DNA of 60,000 nucleotides, from positions 83,082,001 through 83,142,000 of the forward strand of contig NC_045696.1 of the NCBI RefSeq assembly GCF_009834535.1. The letters run 5' to 3'. A model generated the notes under the pieces. It made no database searches and had not been told where the DNA came from. It saw only the letters and a list, made by a program, of their open reading frames with translations. Of this stretch, positions 12,056 through 59,821 are shown piece by piece. Within the stretch, counting starts at the first letter, position 1; every line of letters starts with the position of its first letter. Position numbers and translations under genes: made by a program. This DNA is from Camelus ferus. Taxonomy: Eukaryota.

Positions 12056-13337
12056 CTAAGGGAAGGAGGAAATGTAAACCCAATGAATTAAATTTGTCTG
12101 TGTAAATATAGCTCTAAAAGTGAAAGCAGGGGGAAATTTATTAAATAAGACCATTGCCTACAGAAGTGTGCTGCCCTTTGGGATTTAGGTTTCATTAAAT
12201 TTACTTGGGGATTACTTCACTGTTTGATTTTGTTTTGTTCAGTCAATTTGTGACCGACTGTCAAGGGCCAGCTGCAATTTTCTTGTCACTGAAGAAAATC
12301 ATAGGGTGATGTCAGGTAAAATCAACTAAAATAATAGTATAATTCATGAGGGACCACATATCTGGGTAAAGATATTTTTTTCTGGTGCAGCCGGTTTAAA
12401 TCCTCAAGGTTGTTTCTCTCTGCGCATTAGCATGTACTGTATTCGTGTCACTTGTCAGCTTCTCTGCTGGTTCGTGCTGTTTTCTTTTTACAGGCCAAGC
12501 AGTAAAAGCTTTCCCTCCAACTTCTAAATAATATCGTGCCACTTTGCTAAGAAAATAGAAAGGCTTTCTCGGTATTTTTCAGCTTACAATACGGAGTGAA
12601 GTAGACATTTTGAGTTCATGGTTGTGTCTGATGACAATTCAAACAAATTCAGTTTAAAAAAATCAGACCATTTAGGTTACTGCAGACTTAAAGTGGAATA
12701 ATAATTCCTGGATCAGCCTTTTAATTTAGCACCTTAGGGGTTTGGCAGCATGAAACAATAAACCTTTTAAAAAGACCTCATACTGGAGAGGTTATTGATT
12801 GTCTTGTTCACTGCATCCATGTGTTTTGTTGGCTGCCCTGTGTGCCTGGGGTGTCATTTGTTTTCTTAGCATCACTATCCTTAAGAATATTTCATCTTCC
12901 AGTTTTTTTTAAGTAAAAAAATGACAGCAGTGACAGAAATTCTTACTTTAAGGGCCATTGGTTGCTTGCCTAAGATTAAAAACAAAAAACTAATGAAACA
13001 CAAGGTGATGAATCAAAAAAAGAAGATTTTTCCCCCTCCCTTTCTTGACTGAGATACGTACAAATAAGGGAGCACTGGGTGGACTCTGACTCGGCGTCGG
13101 AACAGCTCTTTACACAGTGTACTGCTGGTCTAGACGTCCTTTTATCTAAGAATCACTGACTGTTCAAATACGTATGGTAAAAGCACTTACCCTGAACTTG
13201 CCAGGTATACCAAAAAGCACATCTGGCTTTGCTGTCTGAAAAGTTTATTGACTTTGTTTGTTAATAAGTGGCTATGCAAGAAAACTGATCGTGGCATTTC
13301 AGAGGTGACTGGGAGTGGATGTTTGTGAAATTCTTAC

Positions 13338-13463
13338 TTCCTCCACGTCGCCGTCAGTAAACCCAGGAAAGCATCCCCTGCGTTCCACTGTGACGTGATG
13401 AAAGGCGCTCCCTACTGAAAGGCTCACAAACAGTCGGAAAAATCAAAATGTATCTCATAAAGG
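13338..13463 (-). pseudogene. Fossil EGF exon (GAP/HHVTVERRGCFPGFTDGDVEE)
   Basis: Donor gtaaga. Matches the MEGF6 repeat [24 protein letters not shown] that precedes the CQCPGEN repeat (recalled from memory). Confidence 0.75.
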
Positions 13464-13789
13464 CTTCCAGTAACTTTGGAAACCAAGAGCTGCACATATT
13501 ACAAATTCTTCCCATCACTGGGAAGACCTGTTTTTGCCAGGGGGTTACGTGAGCATGAAGCTTGATCCTCCCACAGCAAATACGGAGACAAAACCCTGTG
13601 CTCTGAGGAGATCAGTAACACGAGGAGGTCAGATGGCTGTGCTGAACACGACAGGGTTTGTGTAGTAAGTGCCAATATCTCCATCTAGTTAGCCATTTCC
13701 CACCTTGAGGCATGGGGCCAACTGGCACTGGGCTTGAGGGGAGTGACATTCCGATGGATCTGCTCTGAGATACAGAACCATCATAAAGG

Positions 13790-14010
13790 TTGTGTGGTCT
13801 AGAGGAAATGGTGTGAACTTTGAGTCACTTGGGCCCAGCATGGCTATGGACCTTGTTACTGACTTTAAACAGTTATTTAAGCTCTAAGACCCTCAATCTC
13901 CTCTTCGGTACAGTGTGATTAATAAAATCTATCTCATAGACTGCTATGAGGAGTAACCTAGTAGACATAGTGACATATAGGAATCTCATAGTACCTCAGT
14001 AAAGTGTGTT
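13790..14010 (+). mobile_element. MIR SINE remnant
   Basis: gttatttaagctctaagaccctcaatctcctc..taataaaatctatctcatag..tgctatgagga. Confidence 0.55.
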
Positions 14011-14774
14011 TCCTTTCCATTGAAACCCTTATATTTAAAATCAGAATCAACTTTTCAATAAAGACACTGTATTTGGGCAAAAACCGTAGACACATTCAGA
14101 ATAATATGGGGAAAATACCTAATATTCAAAAACTATCTTTACATGAGTCTGCAAGATTCTTTTCAAAAAAAAAAAAAAAAACCTCATTGAAATCACATGA
14201 AGTTTCTGAAACACATGTAAGTAAAATTTAACCATATTCTCATTAATTGTACTGTGTTTTGAAGCTTCACTAAAAAAAATTTACAAATGTTAACCACTTC
14301 TCCATCCCAAGAAGAGCTCAGGCATGTCCTTAGCTTTGATTCTTGAACTCCAGTGGAATCAAAATTGCAGAAGGTATAAATAATTACTCAGGAAAAATTG
14401 ATCTCTTGAAGTTCTTAAAATTAGTTCTTAAATAGATGTTCAAGTGTCTTTGAAGGAATTTACTGAAAAGCAATTAAGTGAAAATGGAAATAAAAGCAAG
14501 AAAAAGCATTCTAAATGTTATTAAAGAGAACTTTTGAGAAATATTAGAGTATTTCTTAGATTATATATACACTATGAAAAGTATCAATTGGTATCTGGCT
14601 AAATAATAATGACTTTGCCTCAGACTTCAGAGGAAAACAAAATTTAATGCAAAGCCTGCTTCATGTCCTCTGAAAGAGAAGGTGGTGTGTTGGTTTATTG
14701 CCCCATGATCCCAGATGGACTGCATTATGGGGCATGCTTCCCATCCATCGTACAAGACATGCAGAATTCTGGAA

Positions 14775-15140
14775 TGTTCTCATTTAGCCAAGAAATATCT
14801 CCTGGATACCTTCTATGTGCCAGATTCATAACAGTGAGCAAAAACAAACATGGTGCTGTACCCATCAAGCTTGCAACAGTAGAAAGAGAAACATGATAAA
14901 ATGATCATTCAAAAAATGTCTAATTTTAAAATGTTATAAGGGGGTAGAGTGCTATGAGAGAGAATAACATGAGGGACCCCAACATGGATTGGCAGGCAGA
15001 GGATGGGCTGTGTTCAGTTCCAGGTGTTCCCTTTGAGGAGATCACCATTCAACAGATCTGAATCACTAGCGAGAGCATATGTAGTGGGAAGGGAGGTGAA
15101 GGAAAGAAGAGTAGGAAGGAGAAAATATTTCCAGGGGGAA
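14775..15140 (-). mobile_element. L2 LINE 3' fragment
   Basis: Reversed L2 3' end (accttctatgtgccag..acagtgagcaaaaac). Confidence 0.55.
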
Positions 15141-15249
15141 AGCCCCAGACACATAGGAGTTACTGATACACTCCTAAACAGTGTGTTGGCAATGATACGT
15201 ATATGTGTATGTTAGGCAGTGGTCAGGCTTACATTATTATAAATGTTTC

Positions 15250-15667
15250 CACGTTAGTTCCCTATGGCTGCTGTAACAAATTTTCACAAATTTAGTGGCT
15301 TTAAAAAACACGAATTTTCTGTCTCACAGTTCTGGAGGTCAGACGTCTAGTATCAAGGTATCGGCAGTGCTGTGTTCCTTCTGGAGACTTGTGGGGAGGA
15401 TCTGTCTCCCAGCCTCTTCCAGCTCCTAGAACCCACCTGTATTCCTTGGCCTGTGGCCACTGTCTCCCTCTTCTAAGCCAGCAGCTTAGCTGCTTCTTCC
15501 TACTCTGATCCTTTTTGATACCAGGCCATCCAGAAAAATCTTCTTATCTCAAAATCCTTAACTTAATCATCCCTGCAAACTCCCACTTTGCATGTAAAAT
15601 AACATACTGACAGATTCCAGGAATTAGGACAAGGACATCTTTGAGGGTCCATTTTTAGTCTACCATA
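15250..15667 (-). mobile_element. MaLR solo LTR (MLT1C/D-like)
   Basis: ggctgctgtaacaaat..tctcacagttctggaggtcaga..ggacatctttgaggg..tctaccata. Confidence 0.8.
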
Positions 15668-16090
15668 ATCTCTGCATTCCCGAGTGTTTTAAGCAGCCTC
15701 TAATTTATCCTTAGAGATCGTGTCATTACATAGACTTATGTTCTTAACAAGAGCCTGTTGCACAAGTCTTTACAGAAATCAATACAAATACTCTAAAAAC
15801 TATATAATATAAAAATATATGGAAAATCTATGATCAATTATTAATTTTTTTTTTTTAGTTAATGGATCCAAAGATGAGTTTTAATATAATGTCACCTTGA
15901 GAATGGCTTGGGATTCTTGGGAGAAGGTCAGGAACCAGCAAGACCTGGGGAAGCAGCTTGAGTACCCAGATACACTTACAGTGAGACTCAGGAAGAAGGG
16001 ATGTTTCAAGGGCTAAAACTGACAGAAATAAAAGACTAAATGCAGATCACAGTGGAAGTTTCTAGACCATGAACTGCCTGCTCTTCTTAG

Positions 16091-16683
16091 TGCTGCAGGA
16101 AAATGGAGTGCAAGAGGATGGCATGTTCCAGGTCCCAGGTGAGTCCCTGGGATGAGCCTCATCAGGTGAGTGTCCTTGGCTTCAGGCAGAAAAGAATTCA
16201 AGAGTGAGCCATCGTAAAGTGAAAGCAAGTTTATTCAGGGAGATACACACTCCATAGACTGAGTGCGAGCCGTCCGGAAAGGCAAGAAAGAGAAAGGCAG
16301 CAGGTGAGAGCATAGGGTGTCTCGGAAAGACAGATCGGAAAGACAGATCGGCCGCAAGGTGTGGGGGTGGTTAGTTTCTATGGGCTTGGTAACGTCATAT
16401 GCTAACAAGCGTGAGGGTTATTCCAACCACTTTGGGGGAGGGGGAGGGAGTCCCAGGAATTGGGCCACTGCCCACTCCTTGGCCTTTTATGGCCTCGGAA
16501 CTGTCCTGGCACCTGCGGGAGGGCCATTTGGCAGCTGATAGATTACAATGAGCGCATAATGAAGCTCAAGGTCTCCTGGGAGTTGGCTCGTCCACCATCT
16601 TAGTTCTAACCAGTTTTTGCCCTGTCCTCCATTGCTGTGTCATTCTTTTTATGGTTGTGCCCTGCTGCCTTCCTCCTGTCTCA
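16091..16683 (-). mobile_element. ERV1-class solo LTR, 593 bp
   Basis: TG...CA termini, 4-bp TSD ttag (16087-16090 and 16684-16687), AATAAA on the minus strand near 16230. Confidence 0.8.
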
Positions 16684-17962
16684 TTAGTGCTCTGTGGAAT
16701 AACATTATTTTTCTGTTTAAAAAAAAAAAACAAGTTGAGAGTCTCCCCTTGTCTACAGAACAGTGTTTGTTTTTACGTGTAAGGTCTCTTTTAAGCAGGG
16801 GTCACTGTGCACATCAGATAAGCAGACATTAACCACTTGCCCACATGGCAAACCAGTGGCAAGATTAGCAGCAAAACCACGGTGGCCTGAGGATGCGCTC
16901 TGATCTTTTTCCCCACTCTCTTGGTGATTCTTCTCAGGAAGTGAGAAGGGTCCTGATTTTTTTAGAACATCAAAGAGTTTCCAAAGTTGGACACTAGGCC
17001 AAGTTGTGGCTTAACTTAGCAGGTAGGAAAATCAGCCTGGAAAGTTTTATGTTAAAAATTTCCTGTTCACCTTGTTTACTAATCAGCCACTCAGGCCCCT
17101 GAAGGAACTGGTCAAACCAGTTTGAAGTAACATAGTTGATACTTCGTTCTAGTTGAAATCATTCTGGACAACCAAAGGACCACAAAACTTCTGTGGGTGG
17201 CTTCTGTGTAGATTTAAGCCCTTCTCCATATTAAAGCTATTTCAGCCTTTGAATTAACCAATGAATATACTCAAAAATCAGAATGAATTGACAGTGACTA
17301 TTTTTGACTAAGGTAGAATTTATATCACTTTGAACATGAAGGTTTAACCTGAATAGAGATAAATACCCAAAAGATTTTTGAAGGGGAAATATTGTATTTT
17401 TTATTTGTTGACTTCCCAGGCATTTGAATGATTTTTATTAAAAATTGCAGGGTCAAGGGATCGGCTTTGCGAAATTCAAGTTGAGACAGAGACCATTAGA
17501 GAGACAAGTTGGTTAATCCTGAAAACCTCAAAAAACACTGTCTCTCACCTAGTTTTACTATAGGGGAAATTTCTAATTGTACATTTTGCTTCTAAAACAT
17601 AAGAATTATCTTCTTCAAGATGATTTCTGAAAGATCATTCATATCTTTCCTTTTCCCACTAAAATTCAAAGACAAATGAGAAATACTATTGTACATCAAC
17701 TATGTGTCAATAAAAAATGGAAAACAAACCAAGAACAAACAGATGAATGAGATATCAACTAGAGAATGGAATGAATTTGTCTTTATTTGTTGTCTTATCT
17801 AATGCCTTACATAGTTATTTTCCATGAGTGAAATATCTGGCTGGCAAACATTTTCTGAGATGGTTTGTAGTTTTCAAACCATACATATAAGAAAGTGCAA
17901 TAAATTGGCTTTTTATTCAGCAATCCATGACTGCCTTAGGATTTGACAAGGCACAGAGTCAC

Positions 17963-18089
17963 TTCCTGTGGGAAGACCCTGTCCAGCCTGGCGAGAAGAT
18001 ACATTGTGGCGTCCCAAGATCACAGGTCTTTCCACTGAGCCAGTTACCATCTCTGAGGCCATCTACTCCAGCACAGTGTCCTGGACAAG
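17963..18089 (-). pseudogene. Fossil EGF exon (CPGHCAGVDGLRDGNWLSGKTCDLGTPQCIFSPGWTGSSHR)
   Basis: Canonical EGF spacing in a single frame, with Cys replaced by G, W, F and H. Acceptor AG>GG after a pyrimidine tract. 127 bp. Confidence 0.8.
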
Positions 18090-19669: not shown

Positions 19670-19960
19670 TTATTACACAATTATTCACCATTTACATTAT
19701 TCACAGGGGCCTGTGCTTGGTGCTGATCATATGAAATTGAGGAAGAACAGTATCTGTTTTCCAGAATCCAAGAGACTGATTCAGGGAGACATGTGAAAAG
19801 TTGAGACAGAACATTCTGACAAGTGCTACGAATAGAGACAATTTTTAAAAAAGGCTAAGGAATCTAAAAGAAAAGACCAATTAACCCTGTCAGGAGGGAA
19901 TCAGGGTGTTTTCAGAGAGGCAGCATTAGAACTGGGTCTAGAAGGGTAGAAATTCATCAG
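19670..19960 (-). mobile_element. L2 LINE fragment
   Basis: ttcagagaggcagcattagaactgggtctagaaggg and upstream L2-like wording. Confidence 0.45.
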
Positions 19961-22256: not shown

Positions 22257-22376
22257 GTAGTAGGCGAGAGGCCCTGGAATCCCAAATACTGGAGAGTTTC
22301 TGCTTCTGCTCAAGTGGGGGAATACTCCCCTCAACGTATAGCCACGATAAAGTTTATAGAATCCAGGAGCGGCATG
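22257..22376 (-). pseudogene. Fossil EGF exon (C/APGFYKLYR.../LGFQGLS)
   Basis: PGFY start motif, GFQG end motif, donor gtaagc. Confidence 0.6.
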
Positions 22377-22727: not shown

Positions 22728-25645
22728 AATTTTCTTCATATCAATATTAAGGTCAATGAAAGTCAACAAATGATGTTCACGTACACTAATGAAACATCTG
22801 TATTAGTGATCAGCTCAAACCCTCACCTGGCAAACAGATGTCTACCCTGAACATTATTCCCCCTTTATCGCTATGGAAAACTGAAGCATCAAAAACAGAA
22901 ACACAAAGGAAGCAATGTTATTTTGCATAATGCAATAATATCAAAGGTTGTAGAATAAGCAGCTTCTCGTCAGTTCAAATCATAAAATCATTGCTTTTAG
23001 GCCATGGCTTGTGAAAGCAAATGCCTTTTCTTAATGCCAATATTTTACAGACATATAAATATTCACTCACAAACATCCACTTAAGTTTCACTCGTTCAAT
23101 TTGCAAATATCAGTTCAATGCTTACTATGGGACAGACACAGAATTTATTTAGGAAAAACTCAAATTTGACTAGATCTCAGAGTTTTCACTCTTTCAAAGT
23201 CACCCCTTTGTGTGAATTCCTTAAAGATAAGAACAAGAAGATACTTGAAAGATACTGGCCGTTAACTTTTATGAACTGTTCATTTCAACTTCAGCTACTG
23301 TAGCTGCTAATGCTCCAAAACAAACTCAACTCAATCAGTAATAAAATACTGCAAATCTCCATGAAGCTTTTTCCCTTCCTAATGGCAGTTTTCTTGTTCC
23401 AAAGTAAGGGACTGAAATGAACAACTTCATTTTACCGCTCTTTCCTTACATACTGTCCTCAATATGTCACATTCTTTCTTAATAATCTGAAAGCATTTTC
23501 ATTTGCGCCTTGGGAATGACTAGAAGAGCTTTTACTGTTATTAAGTCTAGATCAAATCAATCCAGTCTAAATAAGGCACGGGACTAATGTTTCTTTAACC
23601 ACTCCTTCTTCTTACCAATTATTCACAACTATATTGGTGGCCTTGTTAGGAAATCCTTGACATCCAATGATCAGAGGTCCCAGATGCAGGCCGCTTTCAT
23701 ACATTTTGCTGACAACCTTTGAACCAAGCTGCCAAGTCAAAGCTTACCATAGTCTTAAAATCTAAATGGTGATTCATTGTTTGCTTACAGAGAGACAGAT
23801 TACCATTGTTAACTTGACCTCAGCCTCTAACTCCAAGTCAAAAATGCTTGAAGACACGGGCATCTTAACTAGAGCAAGACATAAATCAAATTACCTTCAA
23901 CACCACAAAGAAATGAATGGTTGGCATCTCATGAACTGTAAAGGGCAGTGGGTTTTCCATGGAAGATGAAGTTGAGACTGATGACAAAAGATTCCATTAC
24001 TTAATTGAGTTTAATAAAATATGGAGGAACAAACTTTGCCATGATTTCAAATAGTTTGATGAATAAATAGGGTCATTCTGAGAGCTTGCTAACTGCAGAG
24101 TCCTTGGGAGTAAAGTTTTTCTAGGAGCATGAACGAGACACGAGAGGAACTACCCAGTAGCATGCATGATGTTGTCTTAATTTCCTTCCTACCAGCAAAC
24201 CAAGTTAGAATATATTGTTTTAATCAGCTTACTTGCAAGATTTAGAGCAAGGTAAGGGTAGAGGAGAGAGAGTAAAAAGGCTGCTATGAGGAGATGGGAA
24301 AATATTTGTTCCAGAGAAGATAAATTTTGGTAAGTGAAGGAGGGCTGCAGCAAGGTTAGGCGAGCGCTAAGGCCAGGCCAAACATGAGCATCAAGTAAGA
24401 ATTTTACGAGCATGTTAAATCTCATCATGTCACGAGTTAAACTGCAATTTTATTAAATGCTGGTTGACCTGAATTGAGGCAGTGTGGATCCACAATTGAG
24501 GAAAAGAAAGACTTGGAAGTTTAAATAATAACAGATCATTATTGTTTTTGGTATATGACACCAGCTCTACTTTTTCCAGTAAGTTTGAACTGGAAACTAG
24601 AGGCAAAAACTAAAATGCCTATATGTTTTTAAAAAATACTTATAAAGTCCAGTTTTAAAAACCAAACGAAATTAAAATTAAATGTTGAAAAATGTCTAAT
24701 ACTGATGAGACAACACTAATCCAAATGTTTCAGAAGGCTGCAGGCATTGTTTACTTTCTGCTTTAGGTCTGGGAGGAGAGACAACTCTCTCGACCCGGCC
24801 AGAAGCGTGTGATGATTCAGCATCGTTGCTCTTGATATCTCCCTAAATGTACTGATTTCACAAAACAAAATCTTTTTTGACAATTGGTCTAGAAAAAAAA
24901 GCCCTTTTCCACACAAACAGCAAATAAGCTCTTCAGAGGTTCTTCCCAAAATGCTCTGTAATTCAGCGTTTTCAACAAAAGATGATATATCCCAGAAACA
25001 CTAGAGACATTTCTCCTTTTAAGAGTTTGCCAAAGTGCAAGTGCTTGTGAAATCCGAAGGTTTTTAACATTGGCGCAAGCTAGTTATTTAGAAACATATG
25101 AACATTTCTTTGGGTCTCTGGACAATGCAACTTAATAGAAAGTGACATACACGTGCACCTGAGGATGCTAACGATGCGTGTGTGCACCTAAGGACACCGG
25201 CAAGGCACAGGTATACCTAAGAATATGAATGCATTCATGTGCCTCCTACTGTGCGACTTCACCAACCTGCTGTCAAAAGTGTTGGCTGAAACGTGAAAAG
25301 CTCAGTTATGCACCTCGTTATTTTGCCTGCATTAACTGGTCTGATTTTTTTTCCATTTGAATGAATTGAGCTGATCAGTTGTGTTCATGCTATGGAGTTG
25401 AGCTTCTCTCACCTTCAAAGGATTGGAAATATACAGCCTCTTTCCCCAAATAGCAATTAAATGACAATATTTTTAAAGTAGTCGCAAGTCAACATGAGAA
25501 CAGAGTGTAAAAAACACCTATATTTGGGTATATGTTCATTAACCAGAATTTTACCCATTTTAAAGCGCAGGAAACTATTGGAGAAAAAAAGGTGCATGTG
25601 AGATGCCCCTCTGTACAAGGTGTGGGGTGGAACTGCTCAGGCCAC

Positions 25646-25762
25646 CTCCATTGCTGCCTTTGGCTCCAAACCAGCCAGGGAGCGGTCGGGAGAGCTTAGA
25701 GATGGACTGACAGTGTAACACACCTGGTGACAATTCGACCCCCAGAACTCCGTCTGATCAAG
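25646..25762 (-). pseudogene. Fossil EGF exon (A*SDG/FWGSNCHQVC.../LPGWFGAKGSN)
   Basis: Acceptor ccaattttcag. First Cys codon is now TGA. FWGSNCHQVC and PGWFGAK motifs are clear. A GT donor follows. Confidence 0.8.
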
Positions 25763-26727
25763 CTGAAAATTGGAAATAACAAATCAGCTTTTCCTTCCTT
25801 CCTTCCACTTCTCCTCTCCTGTCCTCTCCTCTCTAAAATACTGTTCCTGTTTCTGTGTACCACTCCAGTGCCTGGCAAATGAACCAACCCTGTTTCTAGG
25901 CTTCTGGACATAAACTTTCCAACCACTGAGAAACTTCTTAATGTTTTAAAAATAGTTTCCCCAATCATATTGAAAACCATTTTTGATCCCCTGTCAAATT
26001 ATTCATTACTTCTCTAACACAGAACATGGAGAATTTTATGTACAATATCTGTTACAGAAAATATACAACAATTTAAAATACTAAGTCCAAAGGTTATTTT
26101 ATACAACTGATAGGAAATTACTGCAGAGTTGGAGCTTTATAATCAAAAATCACATTTTCAATACAGAAAGTTACAGCACAAGGCAGAAACAAATTCAAGT
26201 TTATCTACACAAATCTTTTTCCTTTCTGGTTTGTATAAATAAATTTTTATTAAATTATTATTTTTTACAATAACATTCACACTCAGGAATTCATTGAATT
26301 CGTCCCATATACATAACTCATTTCTCACAAACAAAACCCATACCCATGTATATAACTAACTCACTTTGCCTTATTCATATGTATTTTCCTTTTTGAGCAA
26401 TGCCATATTTTTCAAGTTCATAAGTTGGCAGCTAATAGTAACAAATCTGCCCCCATTTGATCTCTTTTATTTCAAATATACAGTTAATTACTAAAAATGG
26501 AACTTGCATAGAACAACCTAAAAATTTAGAGACCTCAAAATAAGAAATTAATGAGATACTTAAGTCACACTGATTTTCATCTGGTTGGAGAAGCAGCTGG
26601 GAAGGAGAGGGCTATATCCTCAATTAGCATCGGTCAGAATCTAACAAAATTCCTACACCCAAGAAGGCTAGAATGTGTTTTAAAATCTTCTGTTCTAAAG
26701 CTTGAACTATATGTGACCAAAAGCAAA

Positions 26728-26728
<1 letters not shown>

Positions 26729-26770
<42 letters not shown>
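26729..26770. repeat. (CA)21 microsatellite
   Basis: Perfect dinucleotide run. Confidence 0.95.
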
Positions 26771-26774
<4 letters not shown>

Positions 26775-38440: not shown

Positions 38441-38567
38441 CTTTTCCACAGCCTGTCCCTGTCCATCCTCCTGAACACGTGCAGGCTTCTCCCTCCACCA
38501 CAGACACACTGATTCTGAATTTGGTTCCTGACCTTACATTTTGGATCAAAGGTTCCCTCTGGGCATT
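38441..38567 (-). pseudogene. Fossil EGF exon (ECPEGTFDPKCKVRNQIQNQCVC /fs/ ACTCSGGWTGTGCGK)
   Basis: Acceptor aattcag and a GT donor retained. 127 bp, i.e. a net 2-bp deletion frameshift. Confidence 0.85.
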
Positions 38568-39969
38568 CTGAATTAGATAAAATACTCTCTAGGAAGGACA
38601 CTGTGAAAGAGATTTCCCCAAATGCAGGGATCTGACTGGGAGGATGACTTAACCTAGTAGAAGACAAAACTCTAAAATGATCTCCCCAAATGCAGACCAG
38701 AGAGGTCATTAAAATATTATTTTGGGATGCAGGTACTGCTCTGATGAGGGTAACACGCGCTGCTCTTTATGGCCACGTGCGTGAAGTGGAATGGGAGCTC
38801 GGAGAGCCCGCCAGTGCCATAGCACTTCACAGAACAGCAACAGCATCTACAGTTTCCCAGGTTACAACTCCCCAGGTCCTCACTGCAATCGGTGGGCTGC
38901 ACACAATGTTCCGAACTGCTTATGTGCCCCGCATCATCTGAGTTTTTAACCTGCTCTCCTACTTGAGCTATTCCGTATTCAGCTAGCTTGTTTCATATAG
39001 GTGTCCCAAGTTTTATTCTCTTCCAGAATCTCAAGATCATCCATTTAAATTAGGATGGATAGTAAGACTTAGAAAATTACACTCTGCAAAACAACATCTC
39101 ATGAATATATTCAGCCAAACACAGAGTCAAGCTTGTATGAGGCAGGTATTATTAGCCCCAGCTCTGGATATTAAGAAATTGAGGCTTAAGTAAAGTAACC
39201 TGTCGATGGATTACACAGTCACAAAGTAGCAGGGCTGGGGTTCCCGTGCAGGTTGGTTTGGTAACTCTAAAGCCCGTGTTCTTCATCATTAATAGGGGTG
39301 GAAAGACTTATATCATTACACTTTCTACCTTCTAAACAGTTATTCCTTCTCCCCTCCTTACTCCTCCATTGTGAGGACTAAAGAGAAACGAATGAAATGT
39401 TTTTTGGTTCATGCCTATATTATAGGCAGCTTATAAAAAGCAGCTTCTTTCTCCATGTAAATGCTACTTATTTTTAACACTGATACATATGTTAACATTT
39501 AAAGAATATTCCGTGTAATATTTATATGCATAATATGTATTGGCAATATGATGTTGGACAGTTATAATTTTATCAAAGTGCAATTACTAGGAGTATTACA
39601 AGAGCTATCATTCTTTTTGACAATTCAATCAGGCTTCAAAATTTCAAAAGAAGTTTAACTTGCTTCATTGATTGATTTATTCATTATTTATACCCTGTCT
39701 ATTTCAAAAAAGAGGATTTAAAATAACTTGCACAAAAAGCAAAGTCCTGTAAAATAGGATCATTAAAACAAGGATAAAAGAAAAAGAATCTTGTGATAAA
39801 AAGGACAAAAATCTTAGATTAAAGAAAATTACTATGATCAGACATACTTTATCCATGACTTTCTAGATAGCTAAAGCAAAAACAAATGAATAAATAAAAA
39901 TATAGTTCTCTAACTGATAAAAAAAACCACTTTTTTAAAGAAAGGACACGTATCTTTGTACTAGTACAC

Positions 39970-43210: not shown

Positions 43211-45010
43211 TTTTAGTGAAATACTTTGTAAAATATGAAATAAAATTGTACAGGTGTTTTGTGTAAACCTTGGTACATAAGCACATTTCTGAATTCTAAA
43301 TAAAAACCATAGTTTTAACTGTAAACACATGATATTTTATACTTTTTTCTAACTTCCCTCAAAATGAAGGTGACAAAAAATAAAGCTTGAATATAGAAGC
43401 TTATATTTTAAGTGTCTCCGGAGAATTAAAACGATATAAACTAAAAAGAATCACATATACTTTGCTGACTCTAATATATAACTTCTGTTGCAGGCAGAGG
43501 GGGTGATGTCTATAAAATATATGCACCTGAGGTATAATAAAATGTCACTGTGATGTGAACACCCCCCCACACACACACACACACACACATACACACACAC
43601 TCTTAAACTGCGGTCCAAATAGCCAGTTATGAATCCTTAAATAAAAGCCACCACAAAAAGTTTAAAAAGCAAACAAAAGAATTTTCAGTGAGATCACAGT
43701 GGCTTCTGAGAAGTGTATCTGTGCCTATATTGTGTCCCTCACTTCAACTGACGAATCTTCACCTGCTGTGGAAATGACTACAGCAGGGAAAACACATGAT
43801 CCTGACTTGGACGGAAGAATAAACAACAGTTCTCACAGGGCAAATATCCAAATAACCCGTTTTCATGCAGTTACACTAATAACAAGCAAAGCAAGGCAGG
43901 AGGAATCCTGAAGATATAAGATATGTAGGTAGAATTATTTATAAACTGTATGATCCTGAACCTGCCCAAGAGGCATCAGCAAGTCTTTAAAAAGTCCCTC
44001 ACGATCACTGTTACAAGTACGGCAGGAAATAGCATACAGCAGTAATAAACCACGGGCAGTTACAGAAGCAGGCGCAACGTTTACTTTACCAAATGGGGTT
44101 TATTTTTCCTCTGTAGTCTCCTCTTAATAATACGAGCCCCAAAGTGAGGTCTGTGTCTAGATTTATGAAGTAAGTGAAAATGGGGAGGCCCCTGGTCCTC
44201 TGGCACACCAGCCACTCTGTAATCAAGCAACAGCTTGCTGGGCAGGAGGATGTGGCTACCTCTGTGTTCCGTGCATTAGTTAGGCCTGGTGGTGCTCATT
44301 AAATTCTTAATGGGGATGACAATACTACAACCAAAAGAAGATTATAAATGCAGCCACCCTAGGTGCAAAATTATGGGCCAGATTGGAAGTCCCCTATTGC
44401 TGAGCCCATGGACTTTTCGACTAGAACTATTGCATGAAAGGATGTGTAAACATGCTCATTAACATCTTCACTCTCTATAAAGTAACTGTTTGGCCCCAGT
44501 GAGGCAGGTAACATCTCCTCCTCTGGGCAGTGAACTTTAGAATAATCAGTAGTCAAGGTGGTGCCTCACAGTGCCAAAGAGTGACAAGGATGCTGGCATG
44601 CTGGCAGAAGTGGAACAAGAATGTACCTGTGTGTGTACATCTATCCATATATACATAGAGAAACACATATATGCACACACATATACATAAACACACATAT
44701 GCACACATATACACACCTATATGAAAGAAAAAAGAAGAAACATTTTCAGAACTAGTAAAATCAAGCCTCCATTAAATACAGAAATTATGTCCATTGTAAA
44801 CCAAACACAGAAATGTATTAACCAGGGCAAAGCCACAATATGGAGCTCTCTAGTTATTTTTCTCAAATGCTGACTTCACTGAGGGCCAGAGATAATTCCA
44901 ACCTCATATCTCGCTTTTGCCCTGTGGAGATTGCCATGAATAAAAGACTTGGTGTGATCCAGCATACGAGGGGCTAGTCAGTACTGCCCCTCCTCATCTG
45001 AGAAAGCAAC

Positions 45011-52039: not shown

Positions 52040-52560
52040 GATCACATTCATTTATTCCTCAAAAATGTTTAGACCCTCCTAATTACCTCCAGAAGAAGGG
52101 CCAAATTTTCCACGTGGCAAACAGGGCTTTGGGTCCTTTGATTCTTATTATACCCCTTTTACCTTCATCTCCCATCACACCCAGACCTAAATCCAGTCAT
52201 GCTCCTAAGAAAGGAATGCCTGTCCATTTCACACCATGAGGCCATTGCTCATGCTGGTCACCCTGCCTGGCATGAACTTCATACAAGCCCACCCTTCAAG
52301 TTTTTGCTCATCCTTTAAGGTTCAGCAAACATCTCCCCACTTCAATGAAGCCTTCAGGGATTCCCCCTAATGGAATTAATCACAACTTCCTATCATACAT
52401 CTATTATCTCATCCTCTTCTAAAATATAGTTACATTCAGTGGTTTATACACCTTTCTCATCACTAAATTTGAATGAATTCCTTGAGGGTAGGAAGACATC
52501 TTTTTTAGTATCCCATATAGCATCTGGCAAGTGATATAGAAGTCTCAATAAACAAAAACA
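52040..52560 (+). mobile_element. L2 LINE fragment
   Basis: ttgctcatgctggtcaccctgcctgg..tcatcctttaaggttcag..ttccttgagggtagga. Confidence 0.6.
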
Positions 52561-53359
52561 AAATTAAAACTCAGTGAGTATTATGACCTGAGACCTCTCT
52601 CACCTTCAAAGCACTGGGCGAAATTCTCCAGATAATCTACACCATATGGACCTTCCAAAGGTATAATTTGTATTAACCTATTCAATCCTCCTAAGAATCT
52701 GGTGAGATAGGTCCTTTGTTACTCCCCCTTTACAGATGAGGAAACTTAGGCAGAATAAATACGTATTTGTTGCAAGTAGAGAAAGATAGAAGATCAGGAC
52801 TTAGAAGATCTTTGCTTGTGAAGGAAACAATGATATCTGGACATAATCATATCAAAAAGCAAATTAGAAAATAAAGTGTTCTGCATGTCATACCGGCCCT
52901 TATGTTTAAATACTAAGGAATCACAGTCCTAGAATGAATACATGTCAAACAAGTAAAACTAAATATTCAATCACAGTAGATAAAAATTCCAAAATACAGT
53001 GGACCATGAGCCAAACTAGTAATGCACAAAGGGCCTGGGTATATATATGAAAGGTGTGTGTACTGGAAGGTAGAACTTCTGGATGACTCACTGTGTCGAA
53101 ATAAGAATTTATTTTGTCCTCTGCCAGATATTGAGTTTAGGGCTCTGGAAGTGAGCAGCAAGAGTAATCATGGATTACTGTAGACAGCTAGCCAGATATA
53201 TTTACCAACACATAAAAAGAATTTTAAATGCAGTTAAGATTACTCTATAGAAACACAAAGGAATTGAGACTCTCAGCAAGTGCAAAATGCGAAGAAAGTT
53301 CTTTGGGTCATTATTTATGTTAGAGGATGAACAGGACTTATAATCAGCTTCTGATTTAC

Positions 53360-53488
53360 AGTATCTGTCAGCAGGCTCAGTCCAGCTGGACAGGCAGGTA
53401 CACTGGCTGGTATCAAGGTCCCACTGAGAACTCTCATTGCTGATATGGTGCAGCAGGCAGCGTAGGCTGTGGAAATACACTGGGCAAG
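53360..53488 (-). pseudogene. Fossil EGF exon (CPVYFHSLRCLLHHISNESSQWDLDTSQCTCLSSWTEPADRY)
   Basis: Exactly 129 bp, phase 1-1, no frameshift. Acceptor AG>AC, donor gtaaat. Four of eight Cys remain. Confidence 0.8.
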
Positions 53489-54297
53489 GTGCACGCAGAT
53501 AAACAAAAAACCTCGTCCCTCCGTCATTAAATTGAGCACAGGCTGTTATGACACTTGACAGCCCTACAATGCTCTTGGCTGTGTCAGTCACTCTTTTTGC
53601 AACCTAAAAATGTGAGGCCAAAAAAAAGAATAACCTTAATGAAAGTTCTTGACTACTGAGGTTTTTCTATGGAATCTAATATTCTCTATTTTCTTTCTTT
53701 TTTCTTACAAGCAGGCAGCTACATGACAATATTAATAACTAGAGTCTAGTTTTCTAGATATCTAGTGCTTGTATCAACTTTACCAATTATCTAGTCTTCA
53801 ATGACTAATTACATGACTCCTGACATGCTACTTAATTCCACCTAGATTCAGCATCCTCATTCATAAAACGAGGATAGTAATAGAACCAAACTCAGTTGTT
53901 CTGAGGACTAGGTGAGTGAATGAATGACAAGCACAGCACAGGGAACACAGAACAGGTGCTCAATTACCATGAGCTTTGAGTAATGTATTATCACTATATG
54001 GGATATGCCTATATTTACCATGCAGTGTTACTTACTACACATTGAATTATATATTATTATGCAAATATTACTATATATTACCGATTATCTAGTTGAACCC
54101 CTTCCTTTTGTTTACAAAAACCAAGAGCCGGCGACATTTATTCACTATTCTAAGGTGGCCCTGCTATATTCAGGAGAAAGGACTGTGTATATTGGAGGTG
54201 AGTACAGAAAGAAATAAGTCTAGAATTTTGGGAAGAAGCTAAAGAATCATTTAAAAAAAATCATCAGTGTTGGATGTTCTTAGTCATCAAATCCTTT

Positions 54298-54594
54298 TGA
54301 GACAGGAGGGAAGGGGGCAGGGCACAGCCACTGAAGGAATGACACAGCAACTGAGGACAGGACACACTGGTTAGAACTAAGATGGCAGAAGATTCGACTT
54401 CCGGTAGACCCTAAGCCTCATGGCGCACCCACAGGCGCCATGACGGTTCCCAGGCTGACCATAAAAGGTCAAAAAGCAGGCAGTGGAGGGCATTTCCTGG
54501 AAATCCTCCCCCCTCCCCCAACTCAGTTGGGGTAATCCTCTTACTCATTAGCATATGAAATTACCGAGCCCATAAAAACTAACAACTCTGCACC
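54298..54594 (+). mobile_element. 5' half of an ERV1 LTR, same family as 16091-16683
   Basis: Aligns by eye with the reverse complement of about 16355-16683 (tgagacagg..gaatgacacagcaa..ctggttagaactaagatgg..ttagcatatga). Confidence 0.8.
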
Positions 54595-56342
54595 TTGTCG
54601 TCTGTCACATTCTTAAAAAAGCTTCTGAGAAGTGCTTTCAGAAATGGAGTAGAGACCAAGAAGCTGTGGTGCTGGCTTGCACCTCGGCTTCCCTTCTCCT
54701 CTTACCACTGCTGCCATCTTAAAAGCCCTGGTGATTCCCTCCAGTTTAGTGTAGGCTCCTGAGTATTTTTCAGTACCAAAAACTCTGTTTCTTATGTCTC
54801 TTTTTACTTGGTACATTATTACTATGAAACTTTAATCCTAAACTGCTTTACTAAGTTGTCAAAAATGTTCTTTAATTGAATCTAGCAAATTTTTAATGAG
54901 CATTCCTTGTAAATCAAGAGCTGGGGAATACAACAATGAATGACGGTTTTAATCATGTATAAACAGACAATTATAATACAAAGTGCTGAGCAATGCTATG
55001 GAAGGCAGGGATTTAGTGTTTTTGTTTGCTTGTTTGCATAGACTGGAAAATAAAAGTCCCTGAGGGATTTTAATAGGCAACAAAATGAAGGGAGAAACAT
55101 TTCTTTAAGAGAAGAGCAATGAATAATAGCGCCATATTTTAAAAGCACAGGGTGCTTGTGGGGAAGACTAGGGTATGTGGGATCCAGAAGAGAGTAGTCA
55201 AAAATGATGATGCGTCTTTAGTGCCCAAAAGTCTCTGTGGAATTTTGTAAGGCACTGAGTAGGTCGTTGAGGGCTACAAAGTAACGACAGGACTAACTTC
55301 TTTAAGAAGATCTAGGTGAGACATCGTGGAAGGCGATAAGCGTAGGGGAAAGAGCAGCAAGTGGACCCACCAGTGCTCAACTTAAAGCCCTTTCGTCGCT
55401 GCACGACTCCCTCCCATTCCCGCAGGTGATGGGGAGATGAACGCATAGGTAATGACACAGCCATCAGTTCTCAACCACATCCCTATTTTAAAACTGAATT
55501 TGCACAGTAGCGTTTTGAAAGTCCTGTCTCTGCTTCAGTGTTGCCTCTCGGTAGCACGTCTCCATGGGAGCTGACATTTTGCTAATAGTTCATCAGGCTG
55601 GACCGCCTGCCGAGAACCAGATTGGTAAAGGAGATGCATCTCACTGCTGGGAAGGATGGGAGATGTATTATTTAAACACAATTTATTTTACAGTAACTTT
55701 AAGAATCAAATTGAAGGTGGCTTCAGAGAGGTTAAGGCATGTTACTACACCTCACCTCTTGGTGCTTGGTGATGCTTAACGCTCTTAAAATTGTTCTTCT
55801 AATAGTTTTTTATGTGTTGGTTTTGTTTTATTTTGTTTTACAAGTACTCTTTGATTTCTGCCTTAGATACGTGTCTTCTTTTTTACAACAGTGTGTCATA
55901 AAGGAAATGCCAGCCCTGGTTTATGGTTGGTGTGTTATGGGAAGTTGGAAAACAGATTAGTGGTTGAGGTATCAAATGGTTTCTGGAAATCTGAGTCAAT
56001 ACTCCAGCTACATGAGTCCTAGAGAAAGAGACTGAGGGGACTGAGTCTACACATAAAGTGATGCAACATTTTTTTTTTGGTTATTTTTTGAATCTCAAAT
56101 CAATTAAGCTAAGTGATTATTTTTTGTATCAAAAATAAAATAGTCTAGCTAAACAGCAATTTTTTTGCTCCTTGAAACCATTTGTTGATTTATTTAATTC
56201 AACCCCAAAGGTCAAGTTAGTTACCTGTTTAGAAACAGCAGAGTAAAATCAACACCTGAAAAGTAATCATTTCTCAGTATCAAAAAAGAAACAAAAGGTT
56301 AAGAAATCATTCAAAGTGTGCAGAATACAATTATTTGCTAGC

Positions 56343-56548
56343 TAGTGGTATACTGGAGCTGCTATTACCAGCTCAGAAAGCCAGTTGTTAAATTGCAACC
56401 TGAAAATTTTCAGGAATTTTGCGAGCCAGCTGACATCACGTTGGTTGCTTGAAGTCGCCGTGGTAGGAGGATTACATGGGAAATCGTCAAACGATACAAA
56501 TCAGGGTTTTTATATTTCAGAGAACCCAGTAGCTAAACATTTATCAGC
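56343..56548. mobile_element. MER63-like hAT DNA transposon
   Basis: agtggtatactggagc..ttttcaggaattttgcgagcc..tacaaatcagggttt..taaacatttatcagc. Confidence 0.65.
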
Positions 56549-57189
56549 TTCTGTCTACAGAAAGTTCACACCTGTGTTCAATATGGTTTTCATGGCCTTT
56601 AATGACGTTTGACCATCATCACTTCATGATAATTCATTATTTCATGATGTTTGGTCATATAATGTTTAAAGCTAATCTGTATTTGGAACTGGTATCTCCC
56701 TTCTCACACACCGTCTCCCCCATTCTCTCTAGTGTTCTCTTCTCCAATAGGGAAGGGGCCTATTTTGTAAATGCTCATAAAAAATAGGGCAGAATTTAGA
56801 GAAGTAATAACAAAATGACCGAGGGATAGAAACTGGGATTCCCAAAGAAAGGGAAATGAAGTGTTCAGAGGAAACACTACTATGTTCTTTCATTTATTAA
56901 TTTTTAAAAGTATTTTAGAGGTGCTGCCAAGCTATGCTCAAAATCCACATCATCTGAAGTGGGAGAAAACAGTCTTAAATTAAAAGATCAACAAGATCAA
57001 TTTGAAGAAAAAAACATCTTGACTATATGGGAACTGTTAAGACCACGAGACAACACCTTAAGAACAAACTATTACCTTACTTAGATATTTAGTGAATGAT
57101 CGGTCTGAAGATGATGTAGTTTCTCCCTTGATTGTAAAGGGGAAAAACAGTAAAGGAGTACTATGGGAAAGACAGAACTGTAAAGCGGA

Positions 57190-57560
57190 GAAAATATTCA
57201 CTCACAGTCCCACCATCTGGATAATAACTGCGGTCCTTTCTACCATGATTTCCCACATGCATACGTGGGTACAGGCTTTTGCGGAGTTGGACCATTCTCT
57301 ATATAAAACATCTAATGTCAATTTAATGTCAATTCTCCTGACATTACACATTCTTCCAAAAACATGAATCTTAATGACATCAGAATAGTCCACTGATGTG
57401 TTACAGGATTTGTTTACTCATTCTCCTCCTGGTGCATATTTACGTTATTTCTATTCCATATTTTTACTCTTATAAATAAGGCTGGGATAAAGAAAAAGCT
57501 GGGATCACTTCTGAGATTATTTGGTAAGAAGCCCAATACATGAGGCTAAACCTTCACAGA
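57190..57560 (-). mobile_element. Old L1ME-like 3' fragment
   Basis: cccaccatctggataataactg..aatagtccactg..ttataaataaggctg. Confidence 0.5.
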
Positions 57561-59197
57561 GACGATACATTCTCATCAGGAGTGCGAGTGTCTGTGCACC
57601 ACAGCTGCCCCCAACCTCAATGCTGTTTAGGAAGCAGAAAGAAAAAATACAATCTACCATAATCCTGAGGATTTTCTCACAGAGTGAAATAAAACCCTTT
57701 AAAAAAATTATTTTGCCCTAGTATTTGTATTTATAACTTCTAAAAATCGGAATTTCTATAAAGCCATTATTTTTAGAAATAGCTTTTTGGTCTCTCCTGC
57801 CTCTAAAACATATTACCTTGTATAGCCAGTAAGTATTTTTACAGTTCATTATGCAGAGTAACTAGGTTTGAAAATTCTGTAAGCACCATTACAGGGTATT
57901 TAGAGAAATGTTGTATGCTTTTCTTCAAACATAAGCCCCTTTTTAAATGCCACACACATCCCTTGTGGAGCACACATGAAGCATTTTTAATAAGTCCCAT
58001 CATTTGCTTCCATTCATTTCCCTAAATATCCAATTATGATAATTATATAATTTGTGTTTGTATCTGTGTGTGCAAAATCAGATAATAGCATGTAACACTA
58101 AAATTAAACTGGACTAGGAGTTGGGGAATATTTTTGCCTACCCAACTCAATACATTATCTCATGTATCAGGTTGCCAATAAAATTAGAATTGTCATCCCA
58201 AATCTCTCAGGATTATTATGGAATATTCTCCTGGGGTTTGAAATCCTAGAAGGGAAGAGAGTTATAATGTAACTATTAAAATTAATATTTTGAAGAATGA
58301 GCAGTTTGTCTTTCTTTTCACTTGTTTCTAAATAGTCTATTTATATCAATTGGAACAGATATATCACTACCTGCTTAATAATTATTCCATTGAAGTTGAG
58401 TTAGACAAGAGAAAAATGTCACTTCACTGTGGAAATAGCAAGTAACTACCTTTTGAATATGTAAATTCTTACCTTTAAGCTTTTTTAAAAAAAAAAAAAA
58501 AAAAAAGCAAACAAGTAGGTTAGGGATAGCCAACTGCTGCACCAGCAAACTTTATCCTGTTTGAGAGGCTTGTCAACAGCACAGAATGACAGTCCTAAAG
58601 CACAGACAATCTCGTTACATCTAGAAAAATCGTCAGGCAACGACCTTGTCCTACCACTCTTGCTTGAGGGTTTTCCTGAGGGGCAGTAATGCATTTTCCC
58701 CAATGATCAGATGATTAGCCAAGTGCTAATATTATCCTGGTGCTACATTCTATATTTACGTTTAAGTTTCTGGTTTTATTTGCTTGTTGGTTTTTAGGAA
58801 GTCCTAAACACTGAAGCTAATTCAGATCACCGTTCACACCTCATAACATCAGAGACAATTCAAATAATAGACTTTTGCTAACCTTTGTCAAACCATTTGT
58901 ATTTGAAATAGTAATGTAAAAAAAAAAGATACCATTCTTACCATCCAGCCACTGCTTTCCTCAAGTTTTCGAGTTACTCTGTCCCACCACTGATGGAGTA
59001 GAGAAGGCGACGTGGGCAGGGTTGACAGATTATGTAAGAGTGACAAACATAAAAGGTCATAGTTCTACTGGCACTCTGAAACAGATTCAGTTTAACTCGT
59101 AACTTTTTATCAGTCTATAATCTGCTCCCACCCTAACAAGAATGATTAAATACAGTCTAGCAAATTCTTATAGTGCCTTTCAGTAAAACTTTAAGTT

Positions 59198-59718
59198 GTA
59201 TGCTATGATCAGTTGGTTCCAAAGATGGCTACAATCATATCTCCCAGCTAACAGGTCTTCTGCAGAGATTTTGTGACTCATCAGGAGGTAGATCTGTTTC
59301 TCCTCCCCTTGAATCTGGCTGTCCTATGACTTGCTTTAAGCACTACAGTGTGGCCGAGGTAATTATGTGTGGCTTCTGAAGGTAGACTTTTTGACACATT
59401 GTAGCTTCTGTTTTCCCACTTTGGGGATGCTCTTTCTTGGACGTTTGTCTTGAATCCGCCATGCTATGAGGAAGCCCAAGCTAACCTTGTAGAAACGCTA
59501 TGTACAGGAAAGGCCAGATTCCCCTGGTTAAGAAGCCCCAGCTGATCTACTAGCTGGAAGCAGCCACTAGTGACTCCAGGTGAGACCAGAAGGAAAACCA
59601 TCTTATAAATCCACAGAATCAAAAAAAATAATCATCATAAATCATTGTTCGGATGATTTGTTACAAAGTGTTGGTGTTGGGATGGTTTGTTACACAACAA
59701 TAGACAGTTAAAACGTGT
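59198..59718 (+). mobile_element. MaLR LTR (MLT1-like)
   Basis: aaagatggctac..tctcctccccttgaatctggctg..atgctatgaggaagcccaagcta..ggtttgttacacaacaatag. Confidence 0.75.
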
Positions 59719-59821
59719 ACCCAACTAACATCACAGCTCATACAGCAGTTACAAATAAGCACTTATAAAACTAACAACTTCAATGACTTCGTGGGTCATT
59801 TTGTCTAGGTTAATGACTTAC

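What the first reader, a model, noticed from the sequence alone, without database searches (positions are those of the whole stretch)
12056..59821. An 'exon graveyard': a ~48-kb intron holding 20+ fossil EGF exons of an ancestrally much longer MEGF6-like (EGFEM1) protein
Seen: between the exon at 59822 and the intact exon at 11924, minus-strand reading reveals repeated ~105-145 bp segments. They carry residual EGF motifs (CP.G.[FYW]G..C at the start, G[WFY].G..C..|GT at the end) anchored at phase-1 splice sites, often mutated (AG>AC, AG>GG, GT>GC). All are on the gene strand and often clustered with short spacers. Known: MEGF-family repeats are encoded one per symmetric phase-1 exon, so skipping them keeps the frame. 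Inference: the gene lost a large internal block of EGF repeats by wholesale exon skipping (intronisation) rather than deletion, while the flanking exons stayed conserved for longer. I do not know of a description of this.
Basis: partly seen in the sequence, partly recalled or inferred. Interest (0 to 1): 0.85.

Follow-up and report, generated by a model that had tools for sequence, protein, structure and literature searches.

The report
Decayed EGF exons in EGFEM1 intron
A 48-kb intron of a dead mammalian EGFEM1 gene holds the decayed remains of about five (not twenty or more) EGF-repeat exons that bird and fish versions of the gene still use, an ordinary but tidy example of exons lost by decay in place.

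Summary
The window is the EGFEM1 locus of a mammal, with the gene on the minus strand.

**What is there.** EGF-like remnants lie in the 12056-59821 interval, on the gene strand only, and above the plus-strand, shuffled and natural-DNA nulls. I can support about five:
- Firm: 38567-38441, 53488-53351, 18089-17960.
- Probable: about 38940-38810, 25763 to about 25640.
- Weak: one or two more.

This is not "20+". Relaxed motif counts do not exceed chance, and one profile hit is a (CA)n microsatellite.

**Comparison with relatives.** The owl and turbot orthologues carry about 10 repeats (446 and 459 aa) between the units that match the two flanking exons. Both outgroups assign two of the fossils to successive units in gene order, and the owl alone assigns two more. 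The vole and bison gene models join the flanking exons directly. A whale model shares one fossil's frameshift. The block loss is therefore old and shared.

The whole gene is dead in this species. There are in-frame stops in two upstream cbEGF exons and frameshifts in other exons, including the exon at 59964-59822.

**Standing.** Exon loss through failing splice recognition is a known kind of event. I found nothing in print on EGFEM1. No RNA evidence was obtained.

The parts
59822..59964 (-). Upstream flanking exon, one EGF repeat (owl unit 763). It is damaged in this species: 143 nt (not a multiple of 3), an A17 run, one frameshift, and Cys>Tyr and Gly>His in the second half.
   Evidence: Best match is owl residues 761-805 (DP score 122) and Myotis residues 489-537, each needing a frameshift.
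59902..59964 (-). First half of that exon, 63 nt, ending at an internal GT (59901-59900). Spliced to 12055 it reads ...CENG|VCPPG, in frame.
   Evidence: The bison model P0004 has exactly this junction (CENGVCPPGTYG). Whether this species uses it was not tested.
53351..53488 (-). Fossil exon F53k. The frame is open, 5 of 8 Cys are kept, the acceptor is AC instead of AG, and there is no GT at the end.
   Evidence: DP against owl residues 805-842 scores 68. Plus-strand maximum is 44, the maximum over 12 shuffles is 58, and the natural-DNA maximum is 54. tblastn E=0.016. HMM 7.2 bits. Best owl unit is 807, the unit after the flanking exon. Turbot does not agree: units 931/1031 score 58 against 46 for unit 786. 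Pfam found nothing.
38810..38940 (-). Fossil exon F38.9k (probable). It keeps the ...D.GSC insert typical of the 44-aa unit. Ends are approximate.
   Evidence: HMM 11.6 bits (natural DNA gives 1 hit >=10 bits per 100 kb). DP 43 (owl unit 850), 52 (turbot unit 829), 44 (Albula). This is the best unit in both outgroups. It lies about 250-400 bp upstream of F38.5k, in the right order. Pfam found nothing.
38441..38567 (-). Fossil exon F38.5k, the best preserved. It is 127 nt, with AG before and GT after, a 2-nt frame loss, and 6 of 8 Cys kept (CPEGTFDPKC ... CTCSGGWTGTGC).
   Evidence: 60 of the 121 hits fall here; 16.0 and 11.7 bits in two frames; DP 116, owl unit 894; turbot unit 873, score 93; Pfam EGF_Teneurin E=0.0017, below the cutoff; sequence. 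The whale model P0011 reads across the same frame break in one frame at 70% identity.
25640..25763 (-). Fossil exon F25.7k (probable). It has a pyrimidine tract and AG, then FWGSNCHQVC, then LPGWFG in another frame. The 3' end is approximate.
   Evidence: Two adjacent collinear DP pieces score 47 (owl 941-950) and 47 (owl 958-993). HMM 8.7 bits. Best owl unit is 937; turbot is ambiguous. The Myotis model piece 802-809 maps here. Each piece alone is within the null range.
17960..18089 (-). Fossil exon F18k. It has 42 open codons and keeps 3 of 8 Cys (CPGHCAGVDG...PQCIFSPGWTG). The acceptor is GG for AG, and TG stands where GT should.
   Evidence: HMM 15.7 bits (none >=12 bits in 100 kb of natural DNA). 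tblastn E=4e-4 with 30 hits. DP 53-63. Pfam only E=0.89. The matching unit is ambiguous. Myotis model residues 881-931 map here and share lost Cys.
15581..15685 (-). Possible fossil F15.6k (weak): ...CRDYGRLKMDPQRCPCPNSWNLSVC.
   Evidence: tblastn E=0.018. DP 44-46, within the null range. HMM 4.6 bits. Pfam found nothing.
12056..12157 (-). About 100 nt of intron just upstream of the exon at 12055. It is similar to sequence that the owl gene model translates just before its unit 1253.
   Evidence: DP score 93 for the intron part alone, against a null maximum of 58. Function unknown.
11924..12055 (-). Downstream flanking exon, 132 nt, with AG and GT. One repeat (owl unit 1253), no stop or frameshift, and one Tyr>Cys change (GTCG).
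   Evidence: 64% identity to owl, E=1e-23; Pfam EGF_laminin E=2.8e-5.
6457..6585 (-). Next exon, 129 nt, intact, one repeat.
   Evidence: 88% identity to Myotis residues 1019-1059.
4181..4306 (-). Next exon, 126 nt, intact, one repeat.

Best explanation
The window is part of a mammalian EGFEM1 locus (a MEGF6 paralogue) on the minus strand. I propose three steps.

1. **Ancestral state.** About ten laminin-type EGF repeats lay between the two exons that now flank the 48-kb interval. Each repeat sat on its own phase-1 exon, so leaving any of them out keeps the reading frame. Bird and fish orthologues still encode them.
2. **Old block loss.** In an ancestor shared at least with rodents, ruminants, bats and whales, the mRNA came to join the two flanking exons directly. 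The skipped exons then decayed where they lay, losing splice sites, frame and cysteines. About five remain recognisable on the gene strand. Two of them are assigned in gene order by both outgroups, and two more by the owl alone. Insertions presumably swelled the merged intron.
3. **Recent gene death.** Much later the whole gene died in this species. Stops and frameshifts appear in otherwise well-conserved exons, including the upstream flanking exon.

**Shown:** the remnants, their strand bias, their order, the lesions, and the outgroup architecture. **Inferred:** the timing, and that skipping came before decay.
For: **Strand bias and excess over nulls**
- tblastn hits in the intron at E<=0.01: 28 minus, 0 plus.
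- HMM hits at >=10 bits: 4 minus, 0 plus. Shuffles gave 0.12 per strand, and natural DNA gave 1 per 100 kb.
- Frameshift-aware alignment to the owl protein, hits scoring >=45: 9 minus, 0 plus. Twelve shuffles gave a mean of 1.3 (range 0-4). Natural DNA gave about 6 per 100 kb of strand.

**Outgroups have the room**
- 446 aa in owl and 459 aa in turbot lie between the units orthologous to the flanking exons.

**Order matches**
- F53k best matches owl unit 807.
- F38.9k best matches owl 850 and turbot 829.
- F38.5k best matches owl 894 and turbot 873.
- F25.7k best matches owl 937.

**Eutherian models**
- The vole model P0007 and the bison model P0004 join the flanks directly.
- No rodent model longer than 868 aa appeared among the 120 listed hits of a search covering 724-2305 aa.

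**The decay is shared**
- The whale model P0011 reads F38.5k across the same frame break.
- Pieces of the Myotis Ensembl model map collinearly to 38.9, 38.5, 34.7, 30.5, 25.9, 25.7, 24.5, 20.6, 19.6 and 18.1 kb.

**Two layers of decay**
- The fossils are 30-55% identical to the owl protein.
- The flanking and downstream exons are 64-91% identical to orthologues.

**Gene death in this species**
- In-frame TAA and TAG in two cbEGF exons, three frameshifts in unit 588, and two Cys lost in unit 631.
Against: - Only three fossils (38.5, 53 and 18 kb) stand above every null on their own. The pieces at 25.7, 38.9 and 15.6 kb score within the range of shuffled or natural DNA and rest on position, order and combined tests.
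- Turbot does not confirm the unit assignment of F53k or F25.7k.
- Pfam models see an EGF family in 2 of 7 fossil pieces, both below the cutoff.
- All outgroup and eutherian evidence comes from predicted proteins. The owl and turbot models contain mistranslated stretches in this very region.
- I saw no outgroup DNA, no marsupial or monotreme sequence, and no RNA.
- About half of the expected 10 units were not found.
Confidence: 0.8

Rival explanations
1. The remnants are chance or low-complexity matches, and nothing ancestral lies in the intron.
For: - Relaxed motif counts equal chance.
- One HMM hit is a (CA)n microsatellite.
- DP scores of 45-47 also occur in shuffled and natural DNA.
- Pfam is silent on 5 of 7 pieces.
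Against: - F38.5k (DP 116, a full CxCxxGWxGxxC motif, AG and GT in place), F53k (DP 68) and F18k (15.7 bits, E=4e-4) exceed every null.
- The plus strand has no hit at E<=0.1, at >=8 bits, or at DP >=45.
- The order matches the outgroup units.
Confidence: 0.04
2. All the decay is recent. The exons in the interval died together with the rest of the gene when EGFEM1 became a pseudogene in this lineage, and there was no earlier block loss.
For: The gene is dead here: stops and frameshifts in several exons, and the upstream flanking exon is broken.
Against: - The fossils are far more decayed than the recently broken exons. They are 30-55% identical to the owl protein with splice sites gone, against 64-91% for the other exons.
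- Vole and bison models with open frames lack the block.
- Whale and Myotis models carry the same decayed pieces.
Confidence: 0.06
3. Some remnants are still spliced. In particular F38.5k, with AG and GT in place and a length of 127 nt, could be a frame-breaking (poison) cassette exon in species where the gene lives.
For: - Splice dinucleotides are intact.
- It is the best-kept fossil.
- An ab initio whale model splices it to the exon at 12055.
Against: There is no RNA evidence of any kind. The whale model is a hypothetical protein. AG and GT dinucleotides alone are common.
Confidence: 0.1

Closest known systems
Evolutionary exon loss through weakened splice-site recognition, leaving the old exon inside an intron (described in the review PMC12992808, passages read, which cites Wang et al. 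2015 and Alekseyenko et al. 2007; I did not read those two)
   Same: Ancestral constitutive exons are absent from the mRNA and present as decayed sequence on the gene strand between the neighbouring exons. Splice sites are mutated (AG>AC, AG>GG, GT>TG).
   Different: Here a run of about ten consecutive symmetric repeat exons is lost, not a single exon. The host gene later died altogether in this species.
Human EGFEM1P (the name marks a pseudogene, which I recall; PMC9650597, passages read, treats it as a lncRNA)
   Same: It is the same gene family member, and it is dead in a mammal. This window's copy also carries stops and frameshifts.
   Different: I did not compare with human DNA. The assembly is 2.09 Gb, and whether the two deaths are shared or independent is unknown. 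The paper says nothing about lost EGF exons.
MEGF6 / EGFEM1 family of EMI + cbEGF + laminin-type EGF repeat proteins
   Same: The intact exons encode 42-44-aa eight-Cys units, one per phase-1 exon. The orthologues carry Pfam EGF_CA, cEGF, FXa_inhibition and EGF_laminin.
   Different: Eutherian models are 647-868 aa, against 1289-1483 aa in the turbot and owl models.

Membership tests
Evolutionary exon loss with relic (pseudo)exons in the intron | Outgroup orthologues have functional coding sequence between the same two flanking exons | tested here: met
   Owl has 446 aa and turbot 459 aa between the units orthologous to the flanking exons. These are predicted proteins only, and I saw no outgroup exon maps.
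Evolutionary exon loss with relic (pseudo)exons in the intron | Remnants on the gene strand, above chance, in the order of the outgroup units | tested here: met
   The order is supported by both outgroups for 2 fossils and by the owl alone for 2 more.
Evolutionary exon loss with relic (pseudo)exons in the intron | Disabling lesions in the remnants | tested here: met
   Frameshift in F38.5k and F25.7k, lost AG and/or GT at F53k and F18k, and 2 to 5 of 8 Cys lost.
Evolutionary exon loss with relic (pseudo)exons in the intron | Absence of the remnants from mature mRNA | not testable with these tools
Only predicted vole and bison proteins show the direct junction.
Unitary pseudogene (whole gene dead in this species) | Stops or frameshifts in exons that are conserved and open in orthologues | tested here: met
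   In-frame TAA in the exon matching vole residues 147-189, in-frame TAG in the exon matching residues 370-410, three frameshifts in the exon matching residues 531-576, and a frameshift in 59964-59822. No second functional copy was looked for beyond the hits.
MEGF6/EGFEM1 laminin-type EGF repeat exons | Eight-Cys unit of about 43 aa, one per phase-1 symmetric exon | tested here: met
   Intact exons of 132, 129 and 126 nt. Pfam EGF_laminin E=2.8e-5 for 12053-11925.

The most novel reading that the evidence does not exclude
EGFEM1 is a gene caught in stepwise modular erosion.

- An in-frame, en bloc loss of about ten EGF modules left a shortened but working protein in many eutherians for tens of millions of years.
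- Further piecemeal losses followed. Ruminant models use half of the unit-763 exon, and a cat model skips it.
- Independent gene deaths came last, in this species and in human.
- The splice-competent fossil at 38567-38441 and the bird-to-mammal conserved flank at 12157-12056 could be leftovers that still steer splicing across the 48-kb intron.
Probability: 0.25. Interest if true: 0.5.

Novelty: new member of a known kind. Interest (0 to 1): 0.33.

Why it matters
- It is a clean, datable case of a repeat protein shortened by dropping a run of symmetric exons that then rot in place. This shows how modular extracellular proteins can change length without deletions.
- It explains why automatic gene models of this locus are so inconsistent. 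The Myotis Ensembl model of 1317 aa and a whale model both thread pseudo-exons, and the models are misnamed MEGF6 or draper-like.
- It changes no general understanding of exon loss.

Tried and rejected
- **First DP settings.** My first frameshift-aware alignment used penalties that were too low. Alignments ran on for kilobases, so I discarded it and reran with stricter penalties.
- **hmmsearch on whole frames.** It reported only the strongest domains, so I replaced it with 60-aa windows.
- **Third protein search.** The query was the owl block, residues 763-1340. It returned generic multi-EGF proteins and no new orthologue. No marsupial or monotreme orthologue was obtained in any search.
- **HMM hit at 43569-43628.** Rejected as a microsatellite.
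- **Candidates at 45.3 kb (GWTGQLC) and 32.9 kb (DP 47).** Both lie between fossils assigned to adjacent outgroup units and score within the null range. I treat them as chance or undecided.
- **Places where Myotis model pieces map (34.7, 30.5, 24.5, 20.6, 19.6 kb).** They show no convincing EGF features here.
- **Sequencing runs.** No RNA holder was listed.
- **Earlier findings of this scan.** None.
- **Literature.** Among 84 papers holding "EGFEM1", the 20 I saw listed concern lncRNA or expression. "EGFEM1" with "unitary pseudogene" gave 0 papers, and "EGFEM1" with "MEGF6" and "exon" gave 0. The searches gave general splicing and exon-loss papers only.

Full report
**Locus.**
- The window has 33-45% G+C. 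It lies at G000:C1:83082001-83142000 in a 2.09-Gb assembly.
- On the minus strand it carries one-repeat EGF exons with canonical AG and GT at 12055-11924 (132 nt), 6585-6457 (129 nt) and 4306-4181 (126 nt). Each has 2 nt before the first Cys codon, so they are phase 1-1.
- A fourth exon lies at 59964-59822.
- The 43-aa translation of 12053-11925 finds named EGFEM1 and "MEGF6" models of mammals at 81-91% identity (12 of 12 candidates). Pfam gives EGF_laminin for it at E=2.8e-5.
- Other exons of the same gene lie upstream on the same contig and strand, as far as about 83.53 Mb.

**Is there anything in the interval?** Yes, but less than claimed. All counts below are for the intron unless stated.
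- *Strict motifs.* G[FYW]xGxxC occurs 5 times on the minus strand and 0 on the plus strand of the whole window. Two of the five are in the interval, at 38.48 and 45.31 kb.
- *tblastn with 15 proteins* that I chose from the 120 listed.
  - At E<=1: 121 minus, 1 plus.
  - At E<=0.01: 28 minus, 0 plus.
  - The hits pile up in 10 minus places, with 60 at 38.4-38.6 kb and 30 at 17.9-18.1 kb.
- *A 43-state HMM* built from 50 repeat units of 10 non-eutherian proteins and run on 60-aa windows of all six frames.
  - At >=8 bits: 6 minus, 0 plus.
  - At >=10 bits: 4 minus, 0 plus.
  - Twenty dinucleotide shuffles gave 0.6 and 0.12 per strand at those thresholds.
  - The reversed sequence gave 1 and 1 at >=8 bits.
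  - Five 10-kb pieces of the same contig gave 3 hits at >=8 bits, 1 at >=10 and 0 at >=12 per 100 kb of strand.
  - One of the six hits is a (CA)n microsatellite.
  - Start motif, at least 4 of 6 positions: 7 minus, 3 plus, null 3.3.
  - End motif, at least 4 of 6 positions: 6 minus, 6 plus, null 2.8.
- *Pfam models* see an EGF family in 2 of 7 fossil pieces, both below the cutoff.

**Outgroups.**
- The owl protein P0014 (UniRef A0A663MES8, 1483 aa) is the closer of two owl relatives. It is 55% identical to the Myotis model, against 33% for the second owl protein.
- Its unit 763 is the best match of the exon at 59964 (75% identity). Its unit 1253 is the best match of the exon at 12055 (64%, E=1e-23). 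The two units are 446 aa apart.
- In turbot P0020 the matching units are 742 and 1245, 459 aa apart, and its intervening units pair one-to-one with the owl's.
- That leaves room for about 10 units. Both models contain mistranslated stretches there.

**Which remnants are real?** A frameshift-aware local alignment of owl residues 741-1345 to the interval gave these scores.
- Minus strand: 116, 93, 68, 53, 47, 47, 47, 45, 45.
- Plus strand: maximum 44.
- Twelve Markov shuffles: maxima of 43-58, with 0-4 hits scoring >=45.
- Natural DNA: a maximum of 54.

The score of 93 is the intron flank at 12157-12056, not a fossil. My grading is:
- **Firm:** 38567-38441 (score 116), 53488-53351 (score 68), and 18089-17960 (score 53, plus HMM 15.7 bits and tblastn E=4e-4).
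- **Probable:**
  - 25763 to about 25640. It has two adjacent collinear pieces, each scoring 47, an intact AG, and HMM 8.7 bits.
  - About 38940-38810. It has HMM 11.6 bits and DP scores of 43-52, and lies about 250-400 bp upstream of the best fossil.
- **Weak:** 15685-15581.

**Order.** Taking the best-scoring unit for each fossil:
- F53k matches owl 807 (68, next best 57).
- F38.9k matches owl 850 (43, next 39) and turbot 829 (52, next 41).
- F38.5k matches owl 894 (116, next 98) and turbot 873 (93, next 75).
- F25.7k matches owl 937 (47, next 38).
- These are the four units that follow the upstream flanking exon, in gene order.
- Against this, turbot prefers other units for F53k (58 against 46) and is undecided for F25.7k. 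F18k and F15.6k cannot be assigned.

**Anatomy**.
- F38.5k keeps AG and GT. It is 127 nt instead of 129 and has lost 2 of 8 Cys.
- F53k is open but has AC for AG, no GT, and 3 Cys lost.
- F18k has a good pyrimidine tract but GG for AG and TG for GT. It has 42 open codons and has lost 5 of 8 Cys.
- F25.7k has a pyrimidine tract and AG, followed by a frame break.

**Age.**
- The vole model P0007 (868 aa) and the bison model P0004 join the two flanking units directly.
- The whale model P0011 reads F38.5k in one frame across the break at 70% identity, so the frameshift is shared.
- Pieces of the Myotis Ensembl model (residues 538-974, visibly degenerate) map to the window in unbroken descending order from 38.9 to 18.1 kb.
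- The block was therefore already decaying before these lineages split. This inference uses taxonomy that I recall.

**A second, recent layer.** The gene as a whole is dead in this species.
- The exon at 59964-59822 is 143 nt. It has an A17 run, a frameshift, and Cys>Tyr and Gly>His changes.
- Its first 63 nt end at an internal GT. Spliced there to 12055 it would give the same in-frame junction as the bison model.
- Upstream of the window, unit 588 has three frameshifts and unit 631 has lost two Cys.
- Two cbEGF exons carry in-frame TAA and TAG.
- The three downstream exons in the window are unbroken, apart from a Tyr>Cys change in 12055-11924.

**Literature and RNA.**
- I found no paper on EGFEM1 exon evolution.
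- No RNA evidence was obtained.

**Verdict.** This is a real but over-counted set of fossil exons. It records an old in-frame block loss inside a gene that has since died in this species: a new example of a known process.

Noticed in passing
window 12056-12157 (-): About 100 nt of intron just upstream of the exon at 12055 aligns to residues 1219-1252 of the owl gene model, which is intron read as protein. The score is 93 against a null maximum of 58. This suggests a bird-to-mammal conserved non-coding flank at this acceptor.
   Followed up: partly
window 59822-59964 (-): The upstream flanking exon is itself broken (A17 run, 143 nt, lost Cys and Gly). An internal GT at 59901-59900 would give the in-frame half-exon junction seen in the bison model. 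A sheep model and a cat model treat this repeat differently again.
   Followed up: partly
L001, L008, L009 (G000:C1:83.14-83.27 Mb, outside the window): There are in-frame TAA and TAG codons in two conserved cbEGF exons, three frameshifts in one laminin-EGF exon and two lost Cys in another. EGFEM1 is a pseudogene in this species.
   Followed up: partly
window 43568-43600 and 26729-26771: (CA)n microsatellites translate as CVCVCV on the minus strand and give false EGF-profile hits of 8.4 and 4.7 bits.
   Followed up: yes
proteins P0002, P0011, P0008, P0013 (database models): Automatic gene models of bat, whale and unnamed mammals thread pseudo-exons and intron pieces of this interval into proteins of up to 1317 aa, often named MEGF6 or draper-like. 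These are annotation artefacts.
   Followed up: partly
L009 2137-2248 (-), about 62.1-62.2 kb in window-equivalent coordinates: The owl protein has units 676 and 721 between the units that eutherian models join just upstream of the window. Only weak matches (scores 41-46, within the null range) to owl residues 698-767 were seen in that neighbouring intron. It may hold further fossils.
   Followed up: no
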